Below, piece after piece: positions 24,801-48,151 of a stretch of 64,000 bases of DNA. Both the position numbers and the translations under genes were made by a program. Where the stretch lies: the IMG/VR virus record IMGVR_UViG_3300045988_100207; one strand, written 5' to 3'. Source of the stretch: a virus. Numbering within the stretch: the first letter of the stretch is position 1; each line of letters begins with the position of its first letter. Under the pieces are notes generated by a model that did not search any database, was not told where the DNA came from, and saw only the letters and a program-made list of their open reading frames with translations.

Positions 24801-27689
24801 CGCTGCATCAAGGGCTTGCTCTGCGTTGCGAAGATTGCGCAACTCATCAACTACCACGCCGCTATCCGGGTTGTCCGTTCCCAGACTATGCTCCTCGGCA
24901 ACCGTCTTACCTTGGCTGGCAGACTGGTCTGCGTGTGGCCTCCAGCTAGGGAAAAGCTCATCTTCGAGTGCTCTCTTCACATGATAGAAGATTCTGTTCT
25001 CCTCATCAGTACGCTTCATCGGGTCCTTGCGCATGATTTTGTCAATATCAATAACAATGCTTCCTTCTTTACCAAGAAGTTCTTTGATAGAAGCCATGAA
25101 GTTATTAGTATAACCTTTGCTTTCTGATCTGAGGTAGCCAAGCAAACCGTTCTTATCTGCATACTTCGTCCAATCAAGATAGAGCGCACTCTTCTGGTTG
25201 TGCAAGTCATTAATCAGTCGGGCATTATTCGGGTCTGTAATATCCTTATTCTCGTCATATCCGTTTTCTTTAAGGAATCTAAACGCTAGATTAGTGACAG
25301 TTCCATCATCATCTATGAACTGCATATCCTTCATCCTTGCGTAGCCCATCAGCGACATCATATCGTCATTATCACGATAAAGCTTCTGCTTGTAAAGAAT
25401 AGCTCTGCGTTCATCGGCATTCTTATAAGATGTACGTGTAAGCAGCGTTCCATTCTTTGTGTATTCAAGAATCTGCTTATTCTTCACGTCGTTCACGCTT
25501 CGGTAGCTTTTGCCTCTTGTCGTGTTAAACAGTCCCATGGCCGCATTCACCTTCTCTTTGGTGCTCTGAGAAACGTCAGGGTCGTTCATGAAATCCGTGT
25601 AAGCAGTCTTATACTTCGGATCTCTTGGTGCTGTCTTCGATGCACGGTCCACCTTCACGAAAGCATCCATCAGATTCTTGCCAGATGCAGAAGAAATCAA
25701 TTCATTCTTCTCGTCAGGAGTCAGACGAATATCCACGGCAATAGGAGAGCCATTGGCATTCTTTCCAATCACGAAATTACCACCGCTATTATGAGTAAGA
25801 TGATGCAGAATATTGCCCATCTTCACGAAGTTACTAGACTCGCCAGCCTTGAATGCGCCAACCATCACAACATCTTCCAGCCAAGTGCCGAATGAAATAT
25901 CCTTATCACCGGTCACGTTGTCGGCAACCATCATGGTTCCAGCCTCAACGCCCAGTCCGGCGGCCGTAGCACCAAACTTCTGCGCGCCATGAAGCAACCG
26001 CTCGCCAGTACTCTTCTCCATACCTGTAATACCGAACTTGGAAACCCAAGGAGACATGATTGCGCCCGAAACTCCAAACATCGCACCCGTTACCGCACCA
26101 TGCTCAGCACCTTTCAGACCAGCCTCACCGATAGCCTGCAGCGAAGTATCATCGCCAGTAGAAGCCTGATTCAAAGCAGTAGTCACACCCGAATATCCTG
26201 CAAGGTTCAGCGCACCTGTTGCCGTTCTGGTTCCCAATCCCGACATGATTTTCTGTGCCGTAGTCATGTTGGCCACCTTGAAAGCCATCTGCTGGGCGGT
26301 AAGCTTCTGTGCTGCCTTCATCACGCCAGCCTTCACCAGTCCGTTAGTCAGAACTCGGGTTCCAGTATTCACGGCAGCACTTGCGCCGGCACCGATTACG
26401 GCGAGCGGACCAGAATCAGCAGCCATGTTTACTGCAGTAGAAGCGAATCTCGTACCGATTCCCGAGCGATAGGTTTCATCCTTGTGTCCGGCAACCTTCT
26501 GAATCTCCGCATCACCATCTGCAATGGCAATACCTTCCTGCAATCTCTGTCTTGTATCTCTAGACATAACAGATGGAGCCACCACCATACCGATAATAGA
26601 GTTACTGAGGTTCTTGACAATATAGTCAAGCGCACCATGAGGCATGATTTCCTCCTGGTTGCGCATCGTCAGAGCCTTCTGAGCATAGTTCATAATCTCT
26701 GGAGTAACGTATTTGTCCACGTATTCCTCTACACTCATGTTCAGTTTCTCTGCGCTCTCGGCAATATGGCGCTGCATTCCCTTCTGCGAATAAATCTCGT
26801 TGATTTTGCTGCTCAGATTGTTCATCAGAACGTTCTGTCGGTTCACTTGCTCCTGTGTCTGTGCATCACGGAAAGCCTGTTCCTTTACTGACTGAGGCGC
26901 ATAGATGCCGCCCATCTTGTCAAGGTTCTGCTGATACTGCTGACGTGTCAATTCCTGTGCCTCATTCATGGAAGAATCTACCAGTTCGAGCAGATCATTA
27001 CCCAAAATACCTTTGGACTGGCCGTCATTTCTTACGAACTTGTTACCCTCCACCTCATACTGGGCGAATGCTCTAGCATCGTCCTCTCTCTGCTGCTTGG
27101 CTCTAGCCCTGCGAGCTTCAGGAGTAGAAAGCTGCTGCATCGTCTCGTTGAAGTTCTTGGCAGTAGGGGTTATTCTGCTTCTGCTGATAGGGGTAGCTCT
27201 CTGCTGCTCCTGACGTGCTGACTGCTCTTGTGCTCTTTGCATGCGTGCGCGCGCATTACTAGCCTGCGCCTGCTGCATCGGGTTCATCTGGTCGTTACGC
27301 ATGTGCATCAACCGCCAGTTCTGCATGTAGTCTGTACCAGAAGTAGTAGCCGTTCTAGGCTGCTGAGCCTTCTGCTGCCTTGGCTTCCGATACTGAGCTG
27401 CGACTTCCTGCGCTCTCTGCTTCATCGTCAGCTTCTTGACAGGCTGAACTGGCTTCTGCTGCTGAGGCTTCGGATTTACTGCGTGAAGTCCGAGTCGCTG
27501 CGCAAACTCCTCATACGAACTACTGGAAACAGCACCGTCTGCATGAAGCGCATCATAGAGCTGCTTTCTGTTATGATAGCCCTGCTTGCCAGGCGCATAC
27601 ACGAACTGTCTGAAATGTTCTCTAGTTCCCGATACTGCGCCATCGGCTTTCAAGGCGTTATAAAGTTGGTCAAATTTATCTCCAGCCAT
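9882..27689 (-). CDS. giant multidomain (polyvalent, DarB-like) protein, 5,935 aa
   Basis: One uninterrupted 17,808-nt ORF. Motifs read in the translation: ParB-like, EPSAGNG + NPPF (N6A methyltransferase), GDMTGIGKGRQ / DESH / SAT / QMRGRIDRTGQ (SF2, strawberry-notch-like helicase), HELIH, HEVVGH. Confidence 0.95.
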   Translation of the reverse strand: MAGDKFDQLYNALKADGAVSGTREHFRQFVYAPGKQGYHNRKQLYDALHADGAVSSSSYEEFAQRLGLHAVNPKPQQQKPVQPVKKLTMKQRAQEVAAQYRKPRQQKAQQPRTATTSGTDYMQNWRLMHMRNDQMNPMQQAQASNARARMQRAQEQSARQEQQRATPISRSRITPTAKNFNETMQQLSTPEARRARAKQQREDDARAFAQYEVEGNKFVRNDGQSKGILGNDLLELVDSSMNEAQELTRQQYQQNLDKMGGIYAPQSVKEQAFRDAQTQEQVNRQNVLMNNLSSKINEIYSQKGMQRHIAESAEKLNMSVEEYVDKYVTPEIMNYAQKALTMRNQEEIMPHGALDYIVKNLSNSIIGMVVAPSVMSRDTRQRLQEGIAIADGDAEIQKVAGHKDETYRSGIGTRFASTAVNMAADSGPLAVIGAGASAAVNTGTRVLTNGLVKAGVMKAAQKLTAQQMAFKVANMTTAQKIMSGLGTRTATGALNLAGYSGVTTALNQASTGDDTSLQAIGEAGLKGAEHGAVTGAMFGVSGAIMSPWVSKFGITGMEKSTGERLLHGAQKFGATAAGLGVEAGTMMVADNVTGDKDISFGTWLEDVVMVGAFKAGESSNFVKMGNILHHLTHNSGGNFVIGKNANGSPIAVDIRLTPDEKNELISSASGKNLMDAFVKVDRASKTAPRDPKYKTAYTDFMNDPDVSQSTKEKVNAAMGLFNTTRGKSYRSVNDVKNKQILEYTKNGTLLTRTSYKNADERRAILYKQKLYRDNDDMMSLMGYARMKDMQFIDDDGTVTNLAFRFLKENGYDENKDITDPNNARLINDLHNQKSALYLDWTKYADKNGLLGYLRSESKGYTNNFMASIKELLGKEGSIVIDIDKIMRKDPMKRTDEENRIFYHVKRALEDELFPSWRPHADQSASQGKTVAEEHSLGTDNPDSGVVVDELRNLRNAEQALDAAMDSNDVFKQTFEQLHQQGLTPAQIYDALIQNGLIQEELTPLAQYINANARVQGMQQATADAIEENVKSFISDWSYHGTLNGQAMNGEQALYVQDSNGRTLLVGSGDVAFDQTTGRAKEGSGDMLVCLDPNTKEMVYVKADEVTLLQNQPIDQFAAEYRQRLQMKNSEPYNQAAQEQAMQDAAKAQQEVQPKENKNEEISNNETDGKIRKGDNANSGSDGEAEENASEGDASVQQVEQPQQTRKFADGTDVPMATDSKGRPTPDYASMTPEQSAEILTEDFGENAEKVVDGQIKKAENALKDAEKMKVDYTAEPNDIMEQEALKNQTIEAAKKQLEHAQNIKKTMTAKKVAETVGSTEQTEGAHEAGSVAAQKFVNAPRLVGNKRTRMLPDGETKIKGHYEIVPAESLTPSHDVNNDYKKSEGFPTDAEGRTVNDRDYEHDKAAQQNTDQIARKYNGMAIEQVPVVSDEGIVYDGNGRTMAGQKAAKEGTDAEYINDLLENAENFGFTKEQIEQSGIEHPRLVLVTDERLPYDAATFAKFNRNEKKTQSNTEQAVAKAKTLTSDEVGAIVAEIEGNGSLDAFFNNSKAINDLVKTLVDKGIIGQNEVAQMMDSPERLSAQGREYVKNLLLGSIFKPETIRMLGIDSTVKNKAINAIRSVMDNMKLGEFSLRDEIDQAIQLLYEARQGGNKVDTLLRTPSMFGEDAAKRYPSISQMMALALEGKVSDFRDLLDEYNRIAKARNTGEGNMFEAAPTKEELINEYLNFKKWQDYGTGHSEIEGGHDVSGVEEPQQEASGGNEPAEAERRRVEEPDDLVNKELESRIEVTDEETETPSKNGPIMKQKILIDGDKEVIKVDEPNEKGEYTGSYYEYDGKKFGDLNGVLERIDDKTETSSEEMPKGTIYDRKKALLEEIEKGGIKKKDDAFQLLYKAEDLLDDYLGIPHDEWKPEPSRSNTIAGILSMARNALDRIKNEPVEPATEKQLSYLERLTSDDPTTRKLLEGVKLNKKQATWLIGNIKGLDDNLMRLHPDDIAETEKFIHDGIEYMKKLNGETSKEGGLPLLPKEEKPDPTFDPIAAAAQEFKKEHPLTEEEIMKADVDDLSKDIALDYLNGEVTDDLHRAIYESIFAKTRGQKTEPKVETPKAEPSADPMEGIKNAAEGFEKEKKAKTEKKPQQTADDAAVAASNKKVNDLWDMLKNAGKDEISASFVGLNSRQLEVLPKLVSAMAENAYLRIKRGMHNLEDVVKEMRKEFAPAAKLFKKEDVDAIYEQMMNIRYRDGEQRMSLKEWADYYEKTSPKHQENLVGDSKTAEERKLAEKKFIDTVNLQLGFKHKFNGIVELRKIAERVGLKDIKDTDLQELAETAIVKRARGIASSESTNDAVKFERIKTLYENQPSLNQRDSERVMKQQYSTPAPYAFLADMYVKGKGKVIDSALEPSAGNGMLTIGLPMDKVHVNDIDAQRLANLRRQGFKNVTSQDGTQPFADKDVDVVVTNPPFGSATTKEYDGYKISSLEGQMAINALESMKDDGRAAIIIGGKTEYAKNGSLNPKDKAFLGYLYSHYNVEDVINVDGGLYAKQGTSYPTRIILINGRRLNENAFPPVKDKARAETVKDYDELYKRIEDDILRGERMDSSIGEETRSAQPELDKQGATGTPKEGVRAGKRGGSEPDGKRESDLFDSTSVSGTHDDLENQRGTEPREDGRLSDGDSRTDGTGTEPSPSKEPTTGTNEQRGNGSGGAGRNDAQPNADEPASTGSGSGPRGQLQRVDKSVRGLSTEKVTYTPKSGNPFTLKAVMPADQQEAVNKNLEKLGDADQFLVDELGYNDKDDLYSHLAAEQVDSVALALQQAKKGNAFIIGDMTGIGKGRQAASLIRYAKKQGQVPVYFTKTAGLLSDVYRDLVDIGSPDLRPFVFGSAKEAAITDSDGNVVFALPSKSEVKRVLDYIEKNGKLPEEYDYVLTTYSQVSNGVYEFDENGARKEKKLAKGKTFGAAALSGQRRRDAIEKLMDNAYLILDESHTAGGNSGQGNYFQHIIQKAKNVTFFSATFAKRPDNMPIYALRTAMNEGGMKSSDLIDAVKRGGATLQEIMSQTLTQCGQMIRRERDMTGVTIDWKAIDDPERVQEQREQYDSIIGLFNDIINFQKKYVSSYVDERNDELAAIQSTMGIKKGTAALGIKNQPFASKAFNTVQQVLLSLKAKSAAERAIDYLKQGMKPVIALNNTNESQTGNLALGEEMDAPDLGTSLKKGLEGTLRYTQKDAKDNSESGYIKLSDLGDEAVEAYHELEKKIEQTSTGLSLSPIDVIKNELQKAGYKVGELTGRQTEFVYNDNGTVTKVKRADTDKKKLARDFNDGKIDALILNKSAATGISLHASSKYKDQKKRVMIVAQQQLDVNDEVQMRGRIDRTGQVARGAYEYVVSLIPAEQRLLMMFKAKLKSLDANTTSSQKSKFNEMEVADITNKYGDKVVREYMAEHLDLYARMADPFGWEKSHGDDLSRIDPQTLVASGGGVGDGEAGADASKLLGRMALLRVSEQEKMLQEIGELYANEIQRLNEMGENDLEITELPLKAKTLHKEVWKQGAEPGGDNAFADNTYIEKVNMAILKKPMKASEVKASQDGLTGGKTWDEYKTEKKAAVKEYFDQKIADETQKYEERAVKAATKAKEKYIKDAKKGQKDSGMSDEQIEKMAGYQYDNIYKQEKDKLNDVMKNLKAKAEMFERVLDTFDTNQTFALPTDMNNPNELSGFGNSYGRLIDIKITDNYSPNASSVSFATLDGRRKITFPIVGKVGAGEGNIDVISAIDNMTKQAISMGDSHLRVLNQNFDNWDRLTSNESRKNGYIVTGNLMQALVDSKDQGLGGQLVKYTTDTGEVKTGILMPDRFDPKGLTTDAPINSVAEKFELSSWHGGIDEVTSSDGEVKVKRIDNNRGYYYELRVPKSKAKGGKYFMDEDLLKLVNGNNFETRGNNMLAEFKPEQLKPVLDRLSKMGVKVQEERNTSEDEGTHFREDRGFQYSKTDTKDVKNSRIIPEDVDKNVSSQIEKKFDDRVDELTKDLSNEDKAEFNRHLDYYTSEFSRYKASEITYTLNGLEDEVRFWGRTFGNREKAGRTHLVQLKRAELEAAKTAARREMDYREVRAKALADGYGLRRGAKASFADISRLFEATNQAKEEGTRRLFEKARDIAKRLGVEFGGMDEGDERGNVGEATPERNINLFIDTLSRTYTNPKEAAHTILHELIHQATMGAIHLVKDGKAEGMLTPKQIEAVKTVIDIYNKVKADGRIVWEEGKRRNYGGKDEYEFAAEMAGGKQRKILGLSLGERIMNAVNELRNRGDNSLWQAVKNAWHKLFEISDKSKMDKALNDIMDDFNEKIDDIAMNDIEENGYAYRVTDKDELDRLNKEKTFRMYSGMQEVDGKLYSPMAAIIDGKRTDATEIGAWMGADERPDLVKNGKFQLVKTDKNPGAGEGPVPAAYNPYMHTSTSVMNDQFSGAYARGNIKVVEWEIPESEKTSGYHAEGAKNSVGLVPWTSGTVNSLLPKDRQRSVMLSRWRKAVRILPDEEVAEKIADQLRGTGLAIPWNVVTPNQLRELVKLGVPITTVEQGRQNPETKEKFLKQMAELEQEFPQAKFVNVKMTKDAFNVWGKDGGIKFRTDHGDGNYPTSSVESHIEKVVQKTGAKVNMVSSVDEITNKAAKAAIEEGRKITGWYDEKTGEVHLYMPNIHDRYTAEKTIWHEVVGHKGMSELFGDERFDKFLREVWYDLDKPENAALKKLVDEERKFNPLNIYDAIEEGIARLAEDGKGEPGFWNGIKNKVSDFLHEIGYRVAPNTKDVKYLLWLSKNLQKNPDDPYWKMRAEAVKYRLDHERMPAVVAHDGMFYGNDGKVRSMDNLTKAEWNEATDGEIHFRTTPSAGTALDRYHRSLDEHGYMFTESYMDNMLSLKKLMNAIVPDKKIEDIASSENPYILQNTMQGAMSDAAQMFERNVMKPLDKAMADVLDAFDGKKDDEKIRNFNLYMITKHGLERNREFFVRDFLRNMRMDEQKKQDADFLENSYYSDKEYLDNELKAGNIDLKEYYRQLDESIRNHFDADFEAGEHDYSGMHAIQEVTKSSDPYNDAEAIQSVMDSEAKMESIKKGAVKDYWDKVKAATQYSIDSDYKNGIISKELHGHVSNMFNWYVPLRKYDEATAEDTYGYITEQGDPKSYIGSTIMRARGHKYLSETNVLAQIGAMGNRAIKNGGMNAIRQAFARFARNNSGNNLITETSVWYEKDPVVNIVYERYPDIPEDATADEINQIVSDFNKDMKMKESQGMAYKVYRRDKIGYKFQRAENKSQHIVDVKIAGRTHTFIINGNPRAAQALNGLLENSGAKGIMKPLSSISRMMAQLCTSYNPEFVMRNIMRDAEFASSNVTSKEGARYGALWAKYYAQLGLYKGASNISFKDLSGTTGLGLFAKYRNGTLDMSDKVQRYFKEFMENGGETGWVQIKNMQDWTKEYKKDVKGERSKIDKGGAVLRDFFFGNLANINEVAENIARFATYCASRDSNRSIIRSVYDAKEVSTNFNRHGSGDAIKSFKNGEMTGGKAAARWTYGFTASYLRHCSMFFNAGIQSTNLLVKNLKNHPVGTSINMLAIPFALGALAALGNNVLIASEDEKDRKGVKDPYGELPDYVRRNNLCIYKGGGQFITIPLAIELRAFYGLGDLAAGLTFSPNVSGQKNPALDAVGCMSQLVPVMDYLGNSSAGKEPLNETIKAISPSALSPFVEWELNTDWKGAPIERRGDWNENSPAWQRAYRGVPDGYMAVNKWVNAQTNDVAKGNEDMLGNSFLDMVTNPSMLNHYIGGIGGGAATFTERAIGVIKHGSDTETKDIPFLRSLLYTPNEQSSLQRTKSKWYNYKDEMEKTMANVDRLKSKNVPIDKRITNIGEYFHFQNSKEAAKVRIIELAEKQMKRWKKLRDKSSDTESINFANQNIDRIMMDAVDELDRLE
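13614..13631 (-). other. zincin-like motif 2 (HEVVGH, aa 4687)
   Basis: KTIWHEVVGHKGMSELFG is read directly from the sequence. Confidence 0.45.
15105..15119 (-). other. zincin motif 1 (HELIH, aa 4191)
   Basis: AAHTILHELIHQATMG is read directly from the sequence. Confidence 0.5.
17490..19290 (-). other. SF2 helicase core of strawberry-notch type, aa ~2800-3400
   Basis: GDMTGIGKGRQ (aa 2819), ILDESH (aa 2976), FFSATF, QMRGRIDRTGQ (aa 3358). Confidence 0.7.
20000..20600 (-). other. N6-adenine DNA methyltransferase domain, aa ~2365-2560
   Basis: Motif I EPSAGNG (aa 2398, nt 20481-20498) and motif IV VVVTNPPFG (N at aa 2456, nt 20313-20324). Confidence 0.75.
23340..23625 (-). other. ParB/Srx-like domain, aa ~1355-1450
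   Basis: ESLTPSHDVNNDY (H at aa 1374) and IVYDGNGRTMAG (aa ~1433). Confidence 0.5.
25815..26603 (-). other. Gly/Ala-rich hydrophobic (glycine-zipper-like) region of the giant protein, aa ~363-625
   Basis: IIGMVVAPSV...LAVIGAGASAAV...GAVTGAMFGVSGAI...GATAAGLGVEAGTMMVA. Confidence 0.5.
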
Positions 27690-40234: not shown

Positions 40235-40382
40235 GCTTACCTCGCTTTCTCTTTCTTAAATACCTATTTAATCTTGTTATAACTTTTTTCAATACATAAA
40301 TTTTATCCCCATAAGCAAGATGATAAGTTGGACGCAAATCTTTATCATGATGCGCTATCTTCTTTGCTAATCTAATCTTCAT
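40224..40382 (-). CDS. small basic protein (52 aa), MKxRxAKK family
   Basis: MKIRLAKKIAHHDK...RKRKRGKHEG. Below the track cutoff. Overlaps both neighbours. Confidence 0.45.
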   Translation of the reverse strand: MKIRLAKKIAHHDKDLRPTYHLAYGDKIYVLKKVITRLNRYLRKRKRGKHEG

Positions 40383-41067
40383 ACGCTACTCCTTTTTTGT
40401 TCAACAAATAATCCAAGCACTCCTTACCGATAGTACTTTCTGCCTTGGAATATTCATCATCGTATAACGATTCGTTACCATCATACCTAGAAAGGTATTT
40501 CATTCGTTTCCTGTCTGCATCAGACATGATTTTAAGCTTTGCGACAATCACTTCATTACTGATTACCTTGTCAAGAAACCACAACAGGTTAGTTAACGCT
40601 AATTTGTTTGGTTCATAATCGTCAACATTTGATAATTCTGACAGCCTTCCTTGAGTATATTTCGTAAGTCTATCTTTGTAATTCATACATTTCTCAAAAT
40701 AGAATACGATAGGCTTGTTGAAAGAAGGAGTAAGCAGACCATAAGCGATACTCATACTTACTTGGAACTTTGCAGCACCTGTTAGCAGACCTTTCGCCTG
40801 TTCCTTTATAGATTCACGGAATAGTTCGATACCCATATCACGCTTTCTAAAGTTACAGGCGCGGCAAGAAGGCATGTAATTCTCCATACTGTCCTCACCA
40901 TGAGAAACGACATACTTACCTTCCTTATCACTCCAACGAGGGTAACCGCCACGATTCTTGGGAACGAAATGGTCTACTTGCATATCTTCGAACTTTATTT
41001 CTTTTCCGCAGTATGCGCAATGATGGCCGTACTTCTCCCAAACTTTTATTCTATCTTCCTTTTTCAT
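40372..41067 (-). CDS. HNH endonuclease with an uncharacterised 150-aa C-terminal extension
   Basis: HHCAYCGKEI...VDHFVPKNRGG...NYMPSCRACNFRKRD. Confidence 0.8.
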   Translation of the reverse strand: MKKEDRIKVWEKYGHHCAYCGKEIKFEDMQVDHFVPKNRGGYPRWSDKEGKYVVSHGEDSMENYMPSCRACNFRKRDMGIELFRESIKEQAKGLLTGAAKFQVSMSIAYGLLTPSFNKPIVFYFEKCMNYKDRLTKYTQGRLSELSNVDDYEPNKLALTNLLWFLDKVISNEVIVAKLKIMSDADRKRMKYLSRYDGNESLYDDEYSKAESTIGKECLDYLLNKKGVAYED

Positions 41068-41069
41068 AA

Positions 41070-41303
41070 CTAAGATTCTATTACTTCCAAATACTTCAAC
41101 TTTGCGAATCGGTAAGAGTTATATGTTTCGCCAAGCGTTTTATACACTTTAGATGTAAAGTATAGAATGCAGCCAGTATAATCATTAAAACCTAATATGA
41201 TATACTTATCTTCAATATACCCTGCTACATATGCGCCAATATCCTTGCCCTTATAAAGAACTCGCTTACCTAGATGAGCATTATAAAAATCCTTGTTTGT
41301 CAT
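41070..41303 (-). CDS. hypothetical protein (77 aa)
   Basis: ATG ORF with 2-nt spacing. Confidence 0.6.
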   Translation of the reverse strand: MTNKDFYNAHLGKRVLYKGKDIGAYVAGYIEDKYIILGFNDYTGCILYFTSKVYKTLGETYNSYRFAKLKYLEVIES

Positions 41304-41306
41304 ACG

Positions 41307-41762
41307 CTACTTAAATTTAATGATAAAAAACTCAGTATCAAGCCATTTATCGGGGCATAAGCCTTTCTTAGGCTTGCCGATGGTAATACTCTCAATCTCC
41401 TTCACAATCTTTGGGCTATCGTCATAGTAGCCATTTTTGAAGAGTACGTAGGTAAAGGGTATGAACTTCATAGTACCATCATCCAACAATTTCTTGATAG
41501 TGTCGGTATCTATAAGCATTTCCTCGTTCTTTCCTATGTGGAGTTTTTTGTACTTATCGAAATCTTTGCACTCTTCATCCTTGATAAGGAGAAGACGACT
41601 CATCCAAAAACCTTTAATCACCCGATACTCCTCTGTCTTCTCGCCTGATAGAATCATGTCGAACCATTGCTTGCTGATGGTGAGGGTCAGAACTTCCTTC
41701 TTATTCCAATCAGCGACAGCTTCCTTCAAGTACTTATCCATTACCTTTGCAAGCCTTTCCAT
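41307..41762 (-). CDS. ASCH (PUA-like) domain protein (151 aa)
   Basis: LTISKQWFDMILSGEKTEEYRVIK pattern. Confidence 0.6.
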   Translation of the reverse strand: MERLAKVMDKYLKEAVADWNKKEVLTLTISKQWFDMILSGEKTEEYRVIKGFWMSRLLLIKDEECKDFDKYKKLHIGKNEEMLIDTDTIKKLLDDGTMKFIPFTYVLFKNGYYDDSPKIVKEIESITIGKPKKGLCPDKWLDTEFFIIKFK

Positions 41763-42015
41763 TCTTCTCTTTCATCTTAGCGATGCGTTCATTAAAAGCA
41801 TCAAATGGTCTAACTCTCTTCCTAAACTCGACAAGCGTACATGGATATTTCGCTTTTGTCTTGTGATAATGCCTGTAGCGGTGTATCTTCCAAAAAGAAT
41901 TTACGAAGTCCTTACATTTCTTGAAGGTGTAGCAACAAGTGCAATTCTTACATCTTCCTGTCGAATGCGTCCAGCAGTATGCAAAAATGAGACGCTCTTT
42001 TATAAAACTTCCCAT
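41734..42015 (-). CDS. Cys/His-rich small protein (93 aa)
   Basis: CWTHSTGRCKNCTCC...KCKD. Overlaps the next gene by 29 nt. Confidence 0.45.
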   Translation of the reverse strand: MGSFIKERLIFAYCWTHSTGRCKNCTCCYTFKKCKDFVNSFWKIHRYRHYHKTKAKYPCTLVEFRKRVRPFDAFNERIAKMKEKNGKACKGNG

Positions 42016-42019
42016 AAGC

Positions 42020-42268
42020 CTACAACTTTTCTAATTTATCCAATATGTCATTAAGACTCTTCTCGATGTTGGCGATAACCATCGCTCTAAGTCCTTTGAT
42101 AACATCCTTATCAAGAAGGTAATCTACATTGCGAATCTCGTTGTTGCACCTTCCTTCAAGGTTAACTCTTAAATCCACATAATGGCTATTTGCAAACTGC
42201 AAAAGTTCTCTTTTATCATCAAGGTCTTTCTTCAGCTGAATAGCTTTCTTTAAATCTTCTTCTTTCAT
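42020..42268 (-). CDS. hypothetical protein (82 aa)
   Basis: ATG ORF, first gene after the terminator at 42280-42304. Confidence 0.6.
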   Translation of the reverse strand: MKEEDLKKAIQLKKDLDDKRELLQFANSHYVDLRVNLEGRCNNEIRNVDYLLDKDVIKGLRAMVIANIEKSLNDILDKLEKL

Positions 42269-42279
42269 ACGCTATAATT

Positions 42280-42304
42280 AAAAAGCCCCCTCCGAAGAGA
42301 GGGC
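42280..42304 (-). terminator. intrinsic terminator after the lipoprotein gene
   Basis: On the minus strand: GCCCTCT-CTTCGG-AGGGGGC followed by TTTTT. Confidence 0.75.
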
Positions 42305-42310
42305 AATTAG

Positions 42311-42772
42311 TTACTTAACTATCTTCACTAGGATGGTGTCACGCTTAGGAACGCTTGCACTCGGCTTGGAAGTTCCCTTCACTATATCGCCAATCTTAGA
42401 GAAATTCTTATCAAGAACGATTACATCATCTACGAAAAAATCACTCTCACCGCGATTGTTGAAAACATTCTTCGCACCCCATACTTGGTGATATTTAATC
42501 TTGACCTTCCATCCCTCCACCTGTGCCTTAACCAAGGTGTCGATGAGTTTCTGTTGGTCGTTGCGGTCATTATCAATAGAGAAAGTGAATGGCTCTCCAC
42601 TGGAGTTCATTCCTGTCTGAGTAATGTTCAAGAGACCATCCCAAGAATCCCAAAAAACACCAGCCTTGCTAAACTTGGTAACTGTACCTACACGCTCTCC
42701 GTCAGAGAAGTGCTCCTTACAAGAGGTGAACAAACTTGCGACAACTAAGGTCGCTAACAAAATCTTCTTCAT
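42311..42772 (-). CDS. lipoprotein (153 aa from ATG 42772)
   Basis: MKKILLATLVVASLFTSC signal plus lipobox. The track start at 42784 is TTG. Confidence 0.7.
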   Translation of the reverse strand: MKKILLATLVVASLFTSCKEHFSDGERVGTVTKFSKAGVFWDSWDGLLNITQTGMNSSGEPFTFSIDNDRNDQQKLIDTLVKAQVEGWKVKIKYHQVWGAKNVFNNRGESDFFVDDVIVLDKNFSKIGDIVKGTSKPSASVPKRDTILVKIVK

Positions 42773-42774
42773 AA

Positions 42775-43230
42775 TTATACGCAATTATTTTTAAGTTTCT
42801 GATAAATATCTTTAAGTTTCTCTCTTTGTCTTGCGATGCGCTCCTTTTTCTCCTTCTTTGTCAACTTCTTAATGACAGGATAATCTTTGATTGCATCAAT
42901 GAGCATATTTCTTATATCATCACAGAACACTTCTGTGTTGCTTATCCTAAGAGTTTTGATGTTCAAACTCAAAAGTTCCTTATCTCGCAAATCGTCTTTC
43001 TCTTGCTTTGCAGCATGAGACCAACCATCTACTTCGATAGCGACTTGTATCTTTGGCAGATATATATCAACGAAGTATACATGGTCGTTTACTATGATAG
43101 GGTGCTGAATTTTTGCACTCTGTCTTATATTTCGAGGTAATTTGCTAAACAAATACCTCTCTGCCCTTGTTCGAGTAGCGATAAGCTTGCTACGATTATT
43201 CTTAATCCACTCATTTAAGTTTTTATTCAT
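42775..43230 (-). CDS. DUF559 / Vsr-fold endonuclease-like protein (151 aa)
   Basis: YFVDIYLPKIQVAIEVDGWSHAAKQEKDDLRDKELLSLNIKTLRISNTEV pattern. Confidence 0.6.
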   Translation of the reverse strand: MNKNLNEWIKNNRSKLIATRTRAERYLFSKLPRNIRQSAKIQHPIIVNDHVYFVDIYLPKIQVAIEVDGWSHAAKQEKDDLRDKELLSLNIKTLRISNTEVFCDDIRNMLIDAIKDYPVIKKLTKKEKKERIARQREKLKDIYQKLKNNCV

Positions 43231-44047: not shown

Positions 44048-44090
44048 TGTGTTATCAATGTGTTATCACCTTGTAAAAAATGTGTTATCA
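44048..44090 (+). repeat. TGTGTTATCA x3 direct repeats at 11- and 22-bp spacing
   Basis: Copies at 44048-44057, 44059-44068 and 44081-44090, immediately upstream of ATG 44093. Confidence 0.8.
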
Positions 44091-44092
44091 AA

Positions 44093-45226
44093 ATGGCAAA
44101 AATTAATTTAAGTATTATTCACAATCGTTTGAAGCGAGCGACCTCAAAACATGAAGTTTCGGTAGAATTATGCTTTTGTGCCAAGCGTCAAAGGAAGTAC
44201 TTTTCCACAGGCGTAAAAGTGACAACTACACAATGGTCTGATGCGTCAAAGATGGTTATCAAGAGAAAAGATGCGGATGAACTGAATGAAATCATACAGG
44301 CATACCGCGCGAGAGCAAACGAAATCATCAGTAAGATGGTTAAGGAAGGCTGTTGTGACTTAAATGTGGTTATCTCACAGATGAATGGAGAAGACGAAGG
44401 AACTTCTTTTATCGAGTACTGCGAGAGAAGACGAAATGAGCGTAAGGTGTGCGAGCATACCAAGAAACGCTACGATGTCTTTATCAAATTCCTAAAAACA
44501 TGGGGAAAGATAAAGTCGTTCCAAGACTGCAATGTATCGAAGGTGCGTTCAATGGATGAGTATCTCCACAGACAGGATAAGGCTCAATGCACAATCTATG
44601 ACTATCACAAGTATCTCAAGTTGTTCATCAATGATGCGATGATAGACGGACTTATTGAGCAGAATCCTTATAAGTTTCTGCCATTCCATATTGGTAAGGG
44701 AGAAAAGCAGTATGTTGATTGTGTCACCGAAGAGCAGTTTGCTGCCATCAAGAAACTGAAACTCTCAACACCTCATATTCTCCATGCAAGAGATTTGTTC
44801 CTCTTCCAATGCTATACCGGACTTGCATACTCTGACCTTGCATCGTTCGATTATACTAACTGCGAGGAGATTGGCGGCAAGATGTTCTATCACGCTAAGA
44901 GAACGAAAACAGATACGGATTTCGTATTCCAACTTCTCAAACCTGCCCTGGAGATACTACAGAAGTATGACTTCAAGCTGCCTAGAATGACGAATCAGAA
45001 GTATAATGATTATCTGAAGGCGATCGGGCAGATGGTTGGCGTTGACAGGCTGCATACCCACATGGGTAGAGCGACTGCGGCAACCTTATTCCTGTCTAAG
45101 GGAATGCCTATCAACATTGTGGCAAGGGTGCTTGGGCACACTACCTTGCGCCAGACTACTAGATACGCACGTACATTAAATAAGGATGTACAATCTGCTT
45201 TCGATGCTCTCGAAGGAAAGATGTAA
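44093..45226 (+). CDS. int: tyrosine recombinase / phage integrase
   Basis: C-terminal catalytic pattern ...HARDLFLFQCYTGLAYSDL...HMGRATAATLFL...ARVLGHTTLRQTTRYAR. The track start at 44060 is GTG, so ATG 44093 is preferred. Confidence 0.9.
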   Translation: MAKINLSIIHNRLKRATSKHEVSVELCFCAKRQRKYFSTGVKVTTTQWSDASKMVIKRKDADELNEIIQAYRARANEIISKMVKEGCCDLNVVISQMNGEDEGTSFIEYCERRRNERKVCEHTKKRYDVFIKFLKTWGKIKSFQDCNVSKVRSMDEYLHRQDKAQCTIYDYHKYLKLFINDAMIDGLIEQNPYKFLPFHIGKGEKQYVDCVTEEQFAAIKKLKLSTPHILHARDLFLFQCYTGLAYSDLASFDYTNCEEIGGKMFYHAKRTKTDTDFVFQLLKPALEILQKYDFKLPRMTNQKYNDYLKAIGQMVGVDRLHTHMGRATAATLFLSKGMPINIVARVLGHTTLRQTTRYARTLNKDVQSAFDALEGKM

Positions 45227-45270: not shown

Positions 45271-45633
45271 TCAGCCGACAAGGCTTTTGTCTCTTTCAGC
45301 AATCTTCTCGCTGATGATTTGCTTTAACTCCTTAACCACTCCTTCCTGTACTAGCAACTTTACTTTTGTTTCTGCTAGTTCTTTCAGCAGTTTTTCGTCC
45401 GTCTGCTTGTCTGCATCGTAAAACATACTGCCTCTGCCACAAAGTAGCCAATCTGCTGATATGTCTACGTATGTAGTCAGTATTCTGTCTATAAACTCCA
45501 TTGAAGGCTCCTTTGTGCCGTTCAAATAATTGTTCGTAGCAGCAGGTTTTGCCCCGATAGCGTCAGCAAACCCTCTGTTAGTCAGCCTGTAATGGTCTCT
45601 TACCTCGTTGATTCTATCTCTTAATCCTTCCAT
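45271..45633 (-). CDS. CI-type phage repressor (HTH)
   Basis: LTNRGFADAIGAKPAATNNYLNG...ADWLLCGRGSMFYD, the hallmark of the Bacteroidetes CI-repressor HTH family. Confidence 0.75.
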   Translation of the reverse strand: MEGLRDRINEVRDHYRLTNRGFADAIGAKPAATNNYLNGTKEPSMEFIDRILTTYVDISADWLLCGRGSMFYDADKQTDEKLLKELAETKVKLLVQEGVVKELKQIISEKIAERDKSLVG

Positions 45634-45716: not shown

Positions 45717-45724
45717 TATCTTTG
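45717..45724 (+). promoter_or_regulatory. -7 box TATCTTTG
   Basis: Matches TAnnTTTG and diverges from the CI-like gene. No well-spaced -33 element. Confidence 0.45.
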
Positions 45725-45788
45725 CATCCGTAAACGAGAACAAAACTCGTTCAAAACTTATTTATGGTGCAAATTTACAAAAAATAAT

Positions 45789-45995
45789 ATGAATAAAGTC
45801 GTAAAAATAGAAAAAATATTGATTGATAAAGATAAAATTCCTAAAATCATGAAAATTTTTGGTTGTGGCAAGACTACTGTCTACAATGCTCTTGCTTACC
45901 GGAGTAATAGCCAACAGGCTCAGGACATTCGTTCCTGTGCTCTGAATCGCTACGGAGCAGAGCCTGTTAAGGTGCCACAACTAGTGAGTGTGTAA
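45789..45995 (+). CDS. small HTH protein (Cro/excisionase-like, 68 aa)
   Basis: IMKIFGCGKTTVYNALAYRSN. ATG 45789 is preferred because the TTG at 45702 lies upstream of the -7 box. Confidence 0.55.
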   Translation: MNKVVKIEKILIDKDKIPKIMKIFGCGKTTVYNALAYRSNSQQAQDIRSCALNRYGAEPVKVPQLVSV

Positions 45996-46162
45996 ATGTG
46001 TGAAATATTTGGCTGTTGAACTTTTAGATTAGTTATTCAGACAAAATGCGTTTTAAATTGGATATGCGTGAGCATAGAGTTAAACGATTGCTTAAGAAAG
46101 GTTCTTTTTCTTATTTGTAAACTATCAATTCACTCTTGTGCGTGAGCATAGGAGTGATACAT

Positions 46163-46233
46163 GGGAATCGAGCTAGCTCACTCGGAGTGAGCGGGGAAAC
46201 CCGAGCAAAGGCGTTCAACTCGCCTCGAATCCC
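46163..46233 (+). ncRNA. tRNA-like element A (71 nt) with the anticodon arm replaced by a GAAA-capped mini-helix
   Basis: Acceptor-like stem 46163-46170/46226-46233 (one A.A mismatch). D-arm GCTC-ACTCGGAGT-GAGC. GGG-GAAA-CCC mini-helix. T-arm AGGCG-TTCAACT-CGCCT. Confidence 0.5.
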
Positions 46234-46589
46234 CAAAATAGTTTTGGATATTGTTATTATAATGTTTCTTGAAATCGTTAGGTGTGGAGCGGTATAGACC
46301 CAGTGGCAATATAAGTTGTTTGCGTTGAATTCATGCGCCACGAACCAGAAGGAAATGTTGTGGTCGAGCATTCTACCAGCACCTTTCGTTTTATACCTTA
46401 ATTATATATAGCAGTTTCCGGAACAATCCCATTGCCCTTTTTGGACATAAGTTCTTTGACATATTGGAAAAGTGTAAAGTCGAATAGTGTTAAGTCATTA
46501 TAAGGGAATCCCCGAGCATCAGTCTTTATGACTGACAGCTAAAGCGGTGAGCATGGCTCTTAAATTCATGGTAGCGCATGATGCCGTTA

Positions 46590-46692
46590 TCCACCGATAG
46601 TGTAACTGGTAGCACGCCCGAAACTGTTTTGTGTAAATCCTTAATGCATTCTTATCAAATCGGGAAGTTGGGTCCGAATCCTACAGGTGGAC
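46590..46692 (+). ncRNA. tRNA-like element B (103 nt) with a 38-nt insert in place of the anticodon loop
   Basis: Acceptor TCCACC/GGTGGA. D-arm GTGT-AACTGGTA-GCAC. Stem CCCGA/TCGGG encloses 38 nt. T-arm GGG-TCCGAAT-CC. Confidence 0.45.
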
Positions 46693-46770
46693 TATTATGT
46701 ATTTGTTTGTTGTGTATGATTATTCGCTGCAGCGGCAGCAAACATTGTTTAAAAAAAATTTTGATTCTTT

Positions 46771-46801
46771 CCTGCTCGTCCGTGAGGATGGGCAGGTTTT
46801 T
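46771..46801 (+). terminator. intrinsic terminator, copy 1 of a duplicated element
   Basis: CCTGCTCGTCC-GTGA-GGATGGGCAGG (11-bp stem, GNRA loop) followed by TTTTT. Confidence 0.8.
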
Positions 46802-46825
46802 CTTAAACTTCAAAATCAATGGCTT

Positions 46826-48082: not shown

Positions 48083-48120
48083 TTTTTAGCGTTATTTTTC
48101 ATAAATTTGAATTTATTTTC

Positions 48121-48151
48121 CCTGCTCGTCCGTGAGGATAGGCAGGTTTTT
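48121..48151 (+). terminator. intrinsic terminator, copy 2 of the duplicated element
   Basis: CCTGCTCGTCC-GTGA-GGATAGGCAGG followed by TTTTT. Differs from copy 1 by one stem position (G.U becomes A-U). Confidence 0.8.

What the first reader, a model, noticed from the sequence alone, without database searches (positions are those of the whole stretch)
45996..46802. 0.8-kb coding-poor locus with two tRNA-like cloverleaves that lack normal anticodon loops
There is no convincing ORF between the Cro-like gene and a strong terminator (46771-46801).

Element A (46163-46233, 71 nt) has an acceptor-like stem, a canonical-looking D-arm (GCTC-ACTCGGAGT-GAGC) and a T-arm (AGGCG-TTCAACT-CGCCT). Its anticodon arm is a 3-4-bp helix capped by GAAA.

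Element B (46590-46692) has a D-arm GTGT-AACTGGTA-GCAC, a T-loop TCCGAAT and a matching acceptor. It carries 38 nt where the 7-nt anticodon loop should be.

The locus also has a GAGCAT box four times (46067, 46141, 46511, 46547) and several further hairpins. Options are:
- a decayed phage tRNA array
- tRNA-like processing or stability modules flanking a functional RNA
- a tRNA-mimic RNA of the Y-RNA/YrlA kind
- a large ornate RNA of the type that tends to sit next to tRNAs in phages

I cannot assign it to a known family from memory.
Basis: partly seen in the sequence, partly recalled or inferred. Interest (0 to 1): 0.65.

Follow-up and report, generated by a model that had tools for sequence, protein, structure and literature searches.

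The report
tRNA-shaped RNA array in gut phage
Right after the cro-like switch gene, a family of Segatella (Prevotella) copri prophages carries a strongly conserved 0.8-kb non-coding stretch made of two tRNA-derived cloverleaves that can no longer decode plus two unclassified folded RNA domains; it is most likely an early phage transcript that host tRNA-processing enzymes cut into stable small RNAs whose targets are unknown.

Summary
Window 45996-46802 has no conserved reading frame and contains two tRNA-like cloverleaves on the + strand: A (46163-46233) and B (46591-46691). ARAGORN and Rfam call nothing in the window. About 200 related loci from human-gut viromes and metagenomes (about 15 lineages, Segatella copri phages) share the locus.

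Within the window lineage, A, B's 38-nt insert and two further domains are as constrained as second codon positions. Across lineages, B keeps acceptor, D, anticodon and T stems by compensatory changes, and its insert keeps its sequence. In five lineages B passes Rfam's tRNA threshold. Slot A keeps the acceptor and T arm, but its anticodon arm varies widely: tetraloop stubs, 8-nt loops, 30-80-nt inserts, and a true tRNA-Arg(CCU) in one lineage.

Two further domains also covary: a pseudoknotted domain C (46280-46384) and a three-way junction, preB (46543-46588). These are functional tRNA-derived scaffolds, not decaying pseudogenes.

The best reading is inferred, not shown. One early transcript from the cro promoter is cut at the cloverleaves by RNase P and RNase Z, and B acts as a natural tRNA scaffold for its insert. 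The molecular target is unknown. I rate it a new variant of a known kind.

The parts
45720..45727 (+). TATCTTTG, a Bacteroidetes-type -7 promoter box upstream of the cro-like gene; candidate promoter for the whole non-coding array
   Evidence: Read. It is the only TAnnTTTG box whose position is conserved across lineages. Promoter function is inferred.
45789..45995 (+). cro-like gene (68 aa); context, upstream neighbour
   Evidence: ORF, no Pfam hit. Sits in int / cI-like (HTH) / cro-like synteny. Narrow protein family.
46063..46076 (+). Small hairpin UAUGC-GUGA-GCAUA. In other lineages this position holds a longer GUGA-capped terminator-like hairpin.
46130..46157 (+). 12-bp hairpin capped by a GUGA tetraloop, 5 nt before element A. 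A hairpin of this type precedes slot A in nearly all lineages.
   Evidence: Fold; alignment; hairpin scan; pi 0.019.
46163..46233 (+). Element A: a tRNA-derived cloverleaf with 8-bp acceptor, D arm and T arm (T loop UUCAACU). The anticodon arm is reduced to GGG-GAAA-CCC (46193-46202).
   Evidence: tRNA-Sec model, 15.8 bits, acceptor and T arm only; acceptor and T arm kept with different sequences in every lineage; pi 0.010.
46280..46384 (+). Domain C, a pseudoknotted structured RNA domain. Helices: P1 46280-84/46380-84; 46291-93/46344-46; variable hairpin 46303-07/46337-41; hairpin 46354-59/46367-72. Pseudoknot 46297-46300 with 46362-65.
   Evidence: 97.2% of cells paired against 35-46% with slid partners; 11 of 23 pairs changed on both sides; pi 0.011; found only in contigs that also carry preB/B.
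46452..46471 (+). Conserved box UUCUUUGACAUAUUGGAAAA between C and preB. Resembles the unpaired 5' end of Rfam DUF2693 RNA. Role unknown.
   Evidence: RF02956, 20.9 bits, E 0.19, first 43 model positions only; conserved across lineages.
46543..46588 (+). preB: a three-way junction directly upstream of B, the most sequence-conserved part of the locus. P1 46543-47/46584-88; hairpin 46549-52/46556-59; hairpin 46566-70/46577-81.
   Evidence: covariation in all three helices; RNAalifold gives the same fold on an ungapped alignment; pi 0.012.
46591..46691 (+). Element B: a tRNA-derived cloverleaf whose anticodon loop is replaced by a conserved 38-nt insert (46622-46659). The insert has an apical loop AAAUCCUUA (46635-43) and the strand UUCUUAUCAA (46649-58).
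   Evidence: acceptor 7/7, anticodon stem 6/6 and T stem 5/5 pairs changed on both sides; orthologues score 46-48 bits against Rfam tRNA; insert pi 0.009.
46726..46739 (+). Hairpin H, GCUGC-AGCG-GCAGC. The loop is conserved and the stem covaries (GUUGC/GCAAC, GUGC/GCAC in other lineages).
46771..46801 (+). Intrinsic terminator with conserved inner sequence GUCC-GUGA-GGAU, followed by a U run; end of the non-coding array.
48120..48150 (+). Second copy of the same GUCC-GUGA-GGAU terminator hairpin, further down the early operon.

Best explanation
The stretch is a conserved, multi-module non-coding RNA locus of temperate Segatella copri phages. It is read on the + strand, most likely as the 3' part of the immediate-early transcript that starts at the cro promoter and ends at the terminator at 46771-46801.

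Two tRNA-derived cloverleaves serve as structural scaffolds rather than decoders.
- A keeps only what tRNA-end-processing enzymes recognise: the acceptor/T-arm helix and the D/T elbow.
- B keeps a full tRNA body and carries a conserved 38-nt insert in place of the anticodon loop.

Proposed mechanism:
1. Host RNase P cuts at the 5' ends of A and B.
2. RNase Z (followed by CCA addition) cuts at their 3' ends.
3. The transcript is thereby split into stable small RNAs: A, a domain-C RNA, preB (the 5' leader of B), and B.
4. B works as a natural 'tRNA scaffold' that stabilises and displays its insert.

Shown: the structures, their strand, their selection and their tRNA ancestry. Inferred: co-transcription with cro, cleavage, and what the released RNAs bind.
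For: **Relatives.** Exact and degenerate pattern scans gave about 200 loci in about 15 lineages, all from human-gut viromes or metagenomes. The host label is Segatella copri.

**Purifying selection within the window lineage.**
- pi is 0.010 for A, 0.011 for C, 0.012 for preB and 0.009 for B's insert.
- By comparison, pi is 0.129 at cro third positions, 0.047 at orf92 third positions and 0.05-0.18 in spacers.

**preB+B structure.**
- 91.4% of cells are paired, against 31-50% when the 3' partners are slid.
- 25 of 41 pairs changed on both sides, against 6-10 in the slid controls.
- 0 of 500 shuffles reach the observed values.

**Domain C.** 97.2% of cells are paired against 35-46% slid, and 11 of 23 pairs changed on both sides, including the pseudoknot.

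**Strand.** Many G:U and U:G pairs appear in both alignments, so the + strand is the RNA strand.

**tRNA ancestry.**
- B orthologues score 46-48 bits on Rfam tRNA (threshold 29) in five lineages.
- Slot A holds tRNA-Arg(CCU) in the L099 lineage.

**Pattern of constraint.**
- In slot A, the acceptor and T arm are kept with different sequences in every lineage.
- The anticodon arm is a tetraloop stub in four independent lineages: GAAA, UAAA, UUAG and AGCG.
- Elsewhere it is an 8-nt loop or a 30-80-nt insert. This matches what RNase P, RNase Z and the CCA-adding enzyme require of a substrate (established knowledge).

**Transcription unit.**
- The only positionally conserved Bacteroidetes -7 box is the one before cro.
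- All modules lie on one strand and a terminator closes the array.

**Modularity.** C is absent in the L107 and L099 lineages, and B's insert is absent in L185. This fits separable products.
Against: - No transcript data exist here. The transcription start, co-transcription with cro and every cleavage site are inferred.
- The window's own A and B fail ARAGORN and the Rfam tRNA model.
- B's acceptor stem in the window lineage has only 5-6 pairs. Recognition by RNase P or Z is plausible but not assured for this particular copy.
- The conserved box at 46452-71 could be an internal promoter of a type my consensus scan does not cover.
- My structural alignments were made by hand to fit the proposed structure. 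This inflates the percentage of paired cells, though not the number of distinct compensatory pair types.
- The explanation does not say what the released RNAs do.
Confidence: 0.5

Rival explanations
1. Decayed tRNA genes. A and B are pseudogenes left from a phage tRNA array and have no function of their own. The apparent conservation only reflects the recent common ancestry of the sampled phages.
For: - Both elements derive from tRNAs.
- A distant lineage has an intact tRNA-Arg(CCU) in slot A.
- Other lineages have slot-A genes with 8-nt or 6-nt anticodon loops that look like early decay.
- The window copies fail ARAGORN and the Rfam tRNA model.
Against: - Diversity in A and in B's insert is more than 10-fold lower than at cro third codon positions in the same alignment.
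- B's stems are maintained by compensatory changes across lineages that are only 65-75% identical elsewhere.
- The 38-nt insert is nearly invariant across those lineages.
- Tetraloop-capped arms replace the anticodon arm in four separate lineages.
Confidence: 0.05
2. A base-pairing regulator of the phage's own early operon, in the manner of P4 CI RNA or P1 c4 RNA, which are tRNA-like, RNase P-processed immunity RNAs. B's exposed insert would pair with phage transcripts, possibly with the conserved GUGA terminator hairpins, and change termination or translation. This adds to the processing model rather than excluding it.
For: - The locus sits in the immunity region, directly after cro.
- The insert is conserved in sequence, and its inner helix is weakly supported, so much of it may be single-stranded.
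- Two insert heptamers, AUCCUUA (46637-43) and AUUCUUA (46648-54), are complementary to UGAGGAU or UGAGAAU with one G:U pair. That sequence is the loop plus 3' inner stem of the recurrent GUCC-GUGA-GGAU hairpins.
- This complementarity holds in 12 of 14 lineages.
- Two such sites occur in 1.1% of shuffled inserts.
- The inner sequence of these terminators is conserved while their outer stems vary.
Against: - No Rfam C4 match.
- RNAduplex of the insert against +-1-1.5 kb finds nothing better than shuffled inserts do.
- In the two lineages where the hairpin sequence changed (L099, L148), the insert did not change with it.
- One complementary heptamer is expected by chance in 12-19% of cases, and the match was found post hoc.
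- Invading a stable GNRA-capped hairpin is kinetically unfavourable (inference).
- Other short complementarities (42404-14, and cro in two lineages) are not conserved.
Confidence: 0.17
3. An anti-defence decoy. The non-decoding cloverleaves soak up or inhibit host tRNA-targeting nucleases (anticodon nucleases or toxin RNases) or other tRNA-binding defence proteins early in infection.
For: - The full tRNA shape is kept while decoding is lost.
- The insert contains anticodon-loop-like heptads: U-CUU-A and U-CCU-U.
- The slot-A anticodon arm varies rapidly, as expected under an arms race.
- Phage tRNAs are proposed to counter tRNA-targeting defences through anticodon-loop changes (PMC10264068, abstract listed).
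Against: - There is no direct evidence.
- No nuclease or defence gene is linked to the locus in the scanned neighbours.
- The variation in slot A includes complete loss of the loop, which a decoy for an anticodon nuclease would not be expected to tolerate.
- It does not explain preB or domain C.
Confidence: 0.1
4. One large ornate RNA. The whole 0.7-kb stretch folds and acts as a single particle of the GOLLD/ROOL kind, with the cloverleaves as internal domains rather than cleavage sites.
For: - It is a multi-domain, prophage-borne RNA associated with tRNA-like elements, as described for GOLLD and ROOL (PMC5737381).
- It has many GNRA tetraloops that could make tertiary contacts.
- Domain C never occurs apart from preB/B in IMG/VR.
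Against: - No ROOL or GOLLD match appears even at E <= 10.
- Spacers between modules are variable and indel-rich, with pi 0.05-0.18.
- Whole modules are missing in some lineages.
- No long-range helix enclosing the modules was found, and the whole-region fold is not exceptional (z = -2.1).
Confidence: 0.1
5. Not an RNA: a DNA-level element (origin, attachment or operator site) or a set of small protein genes.
For: - The region has AT-rich spacers, direct repeats of UGCGUGAGCAUAG and inverted repeats.
- Short ORFs of up to 86 aa exist.
Against: - Helices are kept through G:U pairs that would be A-C mismatches on the other strand.
- Reading frames are broken by indels within and between lineages.
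- Both elements descend from tRNA genes.
Confidence: 0.02

Closest known systems
tRNA (Rfam RF00005)
   Same: Both elements descend from tRNA genes. They have an acceptor, D arm with GG, T arm with a UUCRANY-type loop, and stems kept by covariation. B orthologues in five lineages pass the Rfam threshold, and slot A is a real tRNA-Arg(CCU) in one lineage.
   Different: Neither has a 7-nt anticodon loop with U33 and an anticodon. A has a GAAA-capped 3-bp stub and B has a conserved 38-nt insert. The window copies fail ARAGORN and RF00005. The insert is far too short for a group I intron and has no bulge-helix-bulge geometry (from the sequence).
P4 CI RNA / P1-P7 c4 antisense RNA (Rfam C4): tRNA-like, RNase P-processed immunity RNAs
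   Same: These are small structured RNAs encoded in the phage immunity region and cut out of a longer transcript thanks to tRNA-like features. An exposed sequence acts by pairing. What is known about P4 and P1 comes from my own knowledge, not from a paper read here.
   Different: No sequence or structure match to C4. No conserved complementary target was found. The host phylum is different, and here two cloverleaves are combined with two further domains.
Phage T4 tRNA-cluster stable RNAs (species 1 and 2) and tRNA-linked co-transcripts in general
   Same: Non-tRNA stable RNAs embedded among tRNA-type units in one phage transcript and released by the tRNA-processing machinery (own knowledge).
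   Different: In T4 the neighbours are working tRNAs. Here the tRNA-type units themselves have lost decoding, and one carries a conserved insert.
GOLLD and ROOL large RNAs
   Same: Large structured RNAs that are often prophage-borne and lie next to tRNAs, possibly co-transcribed with them (PMC5737381).
   Different: No model match. This locus is modular, has variable spacers and loses modules independently.
YrlA / bacterial Y RNAs
   Same: Non-coding RNA with a domain that mimics the tRNA acceptor, T and D arms but has no anticodon (PMC4201824, listed).
   Different: No Rfam match. No Ro60 (TROVE) gene among the scanned neighbours. YrlA's ends form a Ro-binding stem, whereas here the cloverleaf ends are free, as in a tRNA.
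tRNA-like processing modules of eukaryotic and viral RNAs (MALAT1 mascRNA, gammaherpesvirus 68 tRNA-miRNA units) and the engineered 'tRNA scaffold' for RNA expression
   Same: The principle is the same: a tRNA-shaped unit recruits RNase P/Z and CCA addition to define ends and stabilise an attached or inserted RNA. In the engineered scaffold the cargo replaces the anticodon loop, exactly as in B (own knowledge).
   Different: Those are eukaryotic, viral or artificial systems. To my knowledge a natural bacterial-phage version with a conserved cargo in the anticodon position has not been described. Large catalogues of unnamed phage RNA motifs exist (PMC10690425) and could not be checked.

Membership tests
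tRNA (RF00005) | Cloverleaf with acceptor, D, anticodon and T stems kept by covariation | tested here: met
   For B, acceptor 7/7, D 2/4, anticodon stem 6/6 and T 5/5 pairs changed on both sides. For slot A, the acceptor and T arm are kept in all lineages.
tRNA (RF00005) | 7-nt anticodon loop with U33 and a 3-nt anticodon | tested here: not met
   A has GGG-GAAA-CCC. B has a 38-nt loop with no conserved U33 or anticodon register at either end.
tRNA (RF00005) | Detected by ARAGORN, or scores above the Rfam gathering threshold | tested here: not met
   The window copies are not called: 0 tRNAs, no hit at gathering score, no tRNA hit for B at E <= 10, and only tRNA-Sec at 15.8 bits for A. Orthologues of B in L103, L126, L110, L168 and L114 do pass at 46-48 bits.
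tRNA interrupted by a group I intron | Self-splicing intron of about 200 nt or more with a group I core in the anticodon loop | tested here: not met
   The insert is 36-46 nt in all lineages. No Intron_gpI match.
C4 antisense RNA / P4 CI RNA | Match to the family's covariance model | tested here: not met
   No hit in the window at gathering score, nor in the locus at E <= 10.
C4 antisense RNA / P4 CI RNA | Conserved complementary target sites in the same operon | tested here: inconclusive
   Heptamer complementarity to the GUGA terminator hairpins holds in 12 of 14 lineages, but without co-variation and with marginal statistics. There is no longer duplex above shuffled controls.
C4 antisense RNA / P4 CI RNA | 5' end made by RNase P | not testable with these tools
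   Needs RNA end mapping or an in vitro cleavage assay.
YrlA / Y RNA | Model match, and linkage to an rsr (Ro60, TROVE domain) gene | tested here: not met
   No Rfam match. No TROVE domain among the 28 neighbouring proteins scanned against Pfam. The rest of the window was not scanned.
ROOL / GOLLD | Match to the family covariance model | tested here: not met
   No hit in the window, in the locus at E <= 10, or in 14 related loci.
tmRNA | tRNA-like domain formed by the two ends, plus a tag reading frame | tested here: not met
   ARAGORN finds no tmRNA. The only ORF through B is not conserved, because its AUG is absent in most lineages.
DUF2693 RNA (RF02956) | Match to the structured part of the model | tested here: not met
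   Only the unpaired first 43 model positions align (46451-96, 20.9 bits against a threshold of 81.3); 122 positions are skipped.

The most novel reading that the evidence does not exclude
B is a natural tRNA-scaffolded riboregulator. The tRNA body gives it processed ends and stability. The two conserved heptamers of its insert (AUCCUUA and AUUCUUA) recognise the sequence-conserved GUGA-capped terminator hairpins of the phage's own early operon. The phage would thus control read-through of its early terminators with an RNA, where lambda uses the N protein and boxB. The evidence does not exclude this but supports it only weakly.
Probability: 0.12. Interest if true: 0.85.

Novelty: new variant of a known kind. 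Interest (0 to 1): 0.62.

Why it matters
Segatella copri is one of the most abundant human gut bacteria, and this phage group is common in gut metagenomes. All 82 metagenome hits came from human-gut assemblies.

The locus shows tRNA genes being turned into non-decoding structural parts that remain under strong selection. One is stripped to what the end-processing enzymes need. The other carries a conserved cargo exactly where engineers place cargo in the artificial tRNA scaffold.

It also adds two covariation-supported RNA domains, C and preB, that match no Rfam family.

Its position directly after cro suggests an RNA layer in the early lytic programme or the lysis-lysogeny decision of Bacteroidota phages, a subject on which very little is known. 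It also makes that question testable with a defined set of mutations.

Practically, it shows that tRNA finders miss a class of tRNA-derived phage genes.

Tried and rejected
- **Cultured phages.** BLASTN of the locus against cultured phage genomes found no match, so no isolate is available.
- **Single-protein neighbour searches.**
  - orf92 in IMG/VR returned only near-identical phages.
  - NinG in GTDB genomes returned the same phage, or unrelated contexts without the RNA.
  - The useful distant lineages came from two 61-63%-identical Cro proteins and then from degenerate DNA patterns.
- **Automatic parsing of B** into tRNA segments failed. I segmented 23 sequences by hand, checked them against the sequences, and kept the columns by writing gaps as N.
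- **Internal promoter.** There is no positionally conserved TAnnTTTG box inside the locus. The sigma-70-type scan is not meaningful for this phylum.
- **Target search for B's insert.**
  - Short complements in the window are at chance level.
  - An 11-nt complement at 42404-14 and a site in cro of two lineages are not conserved.
  - RNAduplex finds nothing above shuffled inserts.
- **B as an intron-containing tRNA:** rejected. No conserved anticodon register could be formed at either end of the insert, the insert is too short for group I, and there is no bulge-helix-bulge.
- **Palindrome AAUGCAUU in the insert as a kissing-dimer site:** rejected, because it is not conserved (most lineages have AACAUAUU).
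- **Alternative pairing of GGUAUAGA with UCUACC in domain C:** rejected. A G-to-A change in three lineages is compensated in the GGU/ACC pairing, not in this one.
- **Published catalogues of candidate phage or gut RNAs:** could not be checked, or held no match.
- **Pfam scans of 28 neighbouring proteins:** no RNA-processing or RNA-binding gene was found.
Full report
**Observation**

Element A (46163-46233) has these parts:
- an 8-bp acceptor-like stem, GGGAAUCG/CGAAUCCC, with one A-A mismatch
- a D-arm-like GCUC-ACUCGGAGU-GAGC
- a T arm, AGGCG-UUCAACU-CGCCU, whose loop fits the T-loop consensus
- a GGG-GAAA-CCC stub where the anticodon arm should be

Its minimum-energy fold is the four-way junction (-29.7 kcal/mol, z = -2.6).

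Element B is best placed at 46591-46691. It has a D arm GUGU-AACUGGUA-GCAC, an anticodon stem CCCGA/UCGGG closing a 38-nt loop (46622-46659), a T loop UCCGAAU and a weakened acceptor. On its own it folds no better than shuffles (z = -0.6).

ARAGORN finds no tRNA in the 64-kb window. Rfam finds nothing at gathering score. At E <= 10 only chance-level hits appear.

ORFs in the stretch are 86 aa or shorter. The terminator at 46771-46796 plus a T run is real.

GAGCAT occurs five times on the + strand, at 46070, 46144, 46366, 46514 and 46549. I estimate about 0.3 expected. The copies belong to different structures and are not one box.

**Context**

The stretch lies in a prophage early region with these genes:
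- tyrosine integrase, 44060-45226
- an HTH repressor-like gene on the opposite strand, 45271-45633
- a 68-aa cro-like gene, 45789-45995
- the non-coding stretch
- a 92-aa ORF
- NinG, dUTPase, an SMC-like ATPase and RecT

A GTDB genome hit labels the host Segatella copri.

**Relatives**

The cultured-phage collection has no match.
- Exact patterns from A and B found 43 IMG/VR loci that are 87-100% identical.
- Two distant Cro proteins (61-63% identity) led to contigs with the same gene order.
- In those contigs BLAST recognises only 46546-46682.
- Degenerate patterns from the conserved cores then found 56 and 70 viral loci and 82 metagenome loci, all human gut.
- Together these give 15 clusters at 90% identity.

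**Selection within the window lineage**

In 33 distinct sequences, nucleotide diversity is as follows:

| Region | pi |
|---|---|
| Element A | 0.010 |
| Domain C | 0.011 |
| preB | 0.012 |
| B's insert | 0.009 |
| cro, third codon positions | 0.129 |
| orf92, third codon positions | 0.047 |
| Spacers | 0.05-0.18 |

Indels cluster in the spacers. One of them is a whole hairpin that is present or absent at 46507. The cloverleaves are therefore not drifting pseudogenes.

**Element B and preB**

Across lineages B keeps a tRNA body while its sequence changes. There are at least seven different acceptor helices, including UGCAGAA/UUCUGCA, CUUUGCA/UGCAAAG, CCUCGCA/UGCGAGG and CGCAACA/UGUUGCG.

I built a hand-made structural alignment of 23 sequences and checked it against the sequences. 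On it:
- 91.4% of cells pair, against 31-50% when partners are slid.
- 25 of 41 pairs changed on both sides, against 6-10 in the slid controls.
- No shuffle out of 500 reaches the observed values.

All seven acceptor pairs, six anticodon-stem pairs and five T-stem pairs covary.

In five lineages Rfam's tRNA model accepts B as a 109-111-nt tRNA with an insertion, at 46-48 bits against a threshold of 29.

The insert is conserved in sequence: G-U-A-A-A-Y-C-C-U-U-A-A ... U-C-U-U-A-U-C-A-A. Its possible inner helix shows only one-sided changes and is weakly supported.

No anticodon register is conserved at either end of the insert. B therefore does not decode, and the insert is not an intron of a known type.

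Directly upstream lies preB (46543-46588), a three-way junction and the most conserved sequence of the locus. Its three helices each show compensatory changes. RNAalifold predicts the same fold on an ungapped alignment.

The base after the acceptor is mostly A followed by C, and CCA is not encoded except in one lineage.

**Slot A**

A cloverleaf with an intact acceptor and T arm sits at the same place in every lineage. Its anticodon arm differs:
- tetraloop-capped stubs: GAAA (window), UAAA (L148), UUAG (L222), AGCG (L095)
- 8-nt loops (L123, L126)
- inserts of about 30 nt (L110, L131, L107, L185)
- an insert of about 80 nt (L120)
- a canonical tRNA-Arg(CCU), 65.6 bits, in the L099 lineage

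The window's A matches only the acceptor and T-arm part of a tRNA model.

What is kept in slot A is what RNase P, RNase Z and the CCA-adding enzyme recognise. What varies is what they ignore. This link rests on established knowledge and is an inference here.

**Domain C**

Positions 46280-46384 form a domain present in nine lineages. It has a closing helix, a 3-bp helix, a variable-length hairpin, a 6-bp hairpin, and a pseudoknot between 46297-46300 and the loop of that hairpin (46362-65).

On 25 sequences:
- 97.2% of cells pair, against 35-46% when slid.
- 11 of 23 pairs changed on both sides, against 0-3 in the slid controls.
- The pseudoknot pair takes C:G, A:U and U:A.

Abundant U:G pairs fix the + strand as the RNA strand. 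A pattern scan finds domain C only in contigs that also carry preB/B.

**Other parts**

GUGA-capped hairpins recur:
- before A, at 46130-57
- as terminators with the conserved inner sequence GUCC-GUGA-GGAU, at 46771-46801 and 48120-50

Hairpin H (46726-39) has a conserved AGCG loop and a covarying stem.

A conserved box at 46452-71 resembles the unpaired 5' end of the DUF2693 RNA model. Its role is unknown.

**Transcription (inferred)**

The only Bacteroidetes-type -7 box at a conserved position is TATCTTTG before cro. All modules lie on one strand and end at a terminator. I therefore infer one early transcript: cro, then the RNA array, then the terminator.

**Mechanism**

My best reading is that the cloverleaves are processing and stabilising scaffolds. 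RNase P and RNase Z cut at them, releasing A, a domain-C RNA, preB and B. B then displays its insert much as the engineered tRNA scaffold displays cargo.

Module loss in some lineages fits separable products. C is missing in L107 and L099, and the insert is missing in L185.

None of the cleavage steps is shown, and the function of the released RNAs is open.

One lead concerns two insert heptamers, AUCCUUA and AUUCUUA. They are complementary, with one G:U pair, to the loop plus 3' inner stem of the GUGA terminators in 12 of 14 lineages.
- Two such sites arise in 1.1% of shuffled inserts, and one in 12-19%.
- The two lineages with changed hairpins did not change the insert.
- Duplex energies do not exceed those of shuffled controls.

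**Comparison with known families**

The elements derive from tRNAs, but the window copies fail the defining tests for tRNA.

The closest functional precedents are the tRNA-like, RNase P-processed immunity RNAs of P4 and P1 (no model match, and no conserved target found) and the stable RNAs of the T4 tRNA cluster.

ROOL, GOLLD, YrlA, tmRNA and group I introns are excluded as memberships.

**Limits**
- The structural alignments were fitted by hand.
- Several rows per lineage inflate the cell counts.
- All relatives were found through patterns taken from the locus itself, so its true spread is unknown.
- Published catalogues of unnamed phage RNA motifs could not be checked.

Noticed in passing
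window 46771-46801 and 48120-48150; also L095 4250-4470, L120: The early operon re-uses one terminator-like hairpin whose inner part, GUYC-GUGA-GRAU-AG, is conserved in sequence while the outer stem varies. Some lineages carry four to seven copies. This suggests sequence-specific recognition by a protein or an RNA.
   Followed up: partly
window 46452-46496: A conserved box, GUUCUUUGACAUAUUGGAAAA, aligns with the unpaired 5' end of Rfam DUF2693 RNA (E 0.19). It may be a promoter or operator type shared among Bacteroidota phages.
   Followed up: partly
window 9882-27689 (- strand): A single open reading frame of 5935 aa, far outside the finding. It was not examined.
   Followed up: no
window 40372-43230 (- strand): A block of minus-strand genes just upstream of the integrase includes an HNH endonuclease and a DUF559/PvuRts1I-like endonuclease. 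ORF 42311-42784 contains an 11-nt complement of B's insert at 42404-42414, which is not conserved elsewhere.
   Followed up: partly
L047, L049 (GTDB genome contigs): Contigs carrying this Segatella phage region at about 90% identity sit in MAGs labelled 'Bacilli bacterium' and 'Lachnospiraceae bacterium'. This is probably mis-binning of phage contigs.
   Followed up: no
L185 2263-2426 (- strand): A variant locus in which preB and the tRNA body of B are intact but the conserved insert is replaced by a short aberrant arm. ARAGORN calls it a tRNA with a 2-nt anticodon. It is a natural cargo-less control.
   Followed up: partly
L123 5823-5897, L126 8275-8350: Slot-A genes with otherwise good tRNA bodies and 8-nt anticodon loops (AGGAUGCU, AGGAGGUU). 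ARAGORN reports 4-nt anticodons. They could be frameshift-type tRNAs or steps towards loss of decoding.
   Followed up: no
window 46507 (between GGGA and AUCCCC): Many close relatives carry a 29-46-nt hairpin (GGGAAUGCGCG...CCGCAUCCCC) that is cleanly absent in the window. It is a presence/absence polymorphism of a whole stem-loop.
   Followed up: partly
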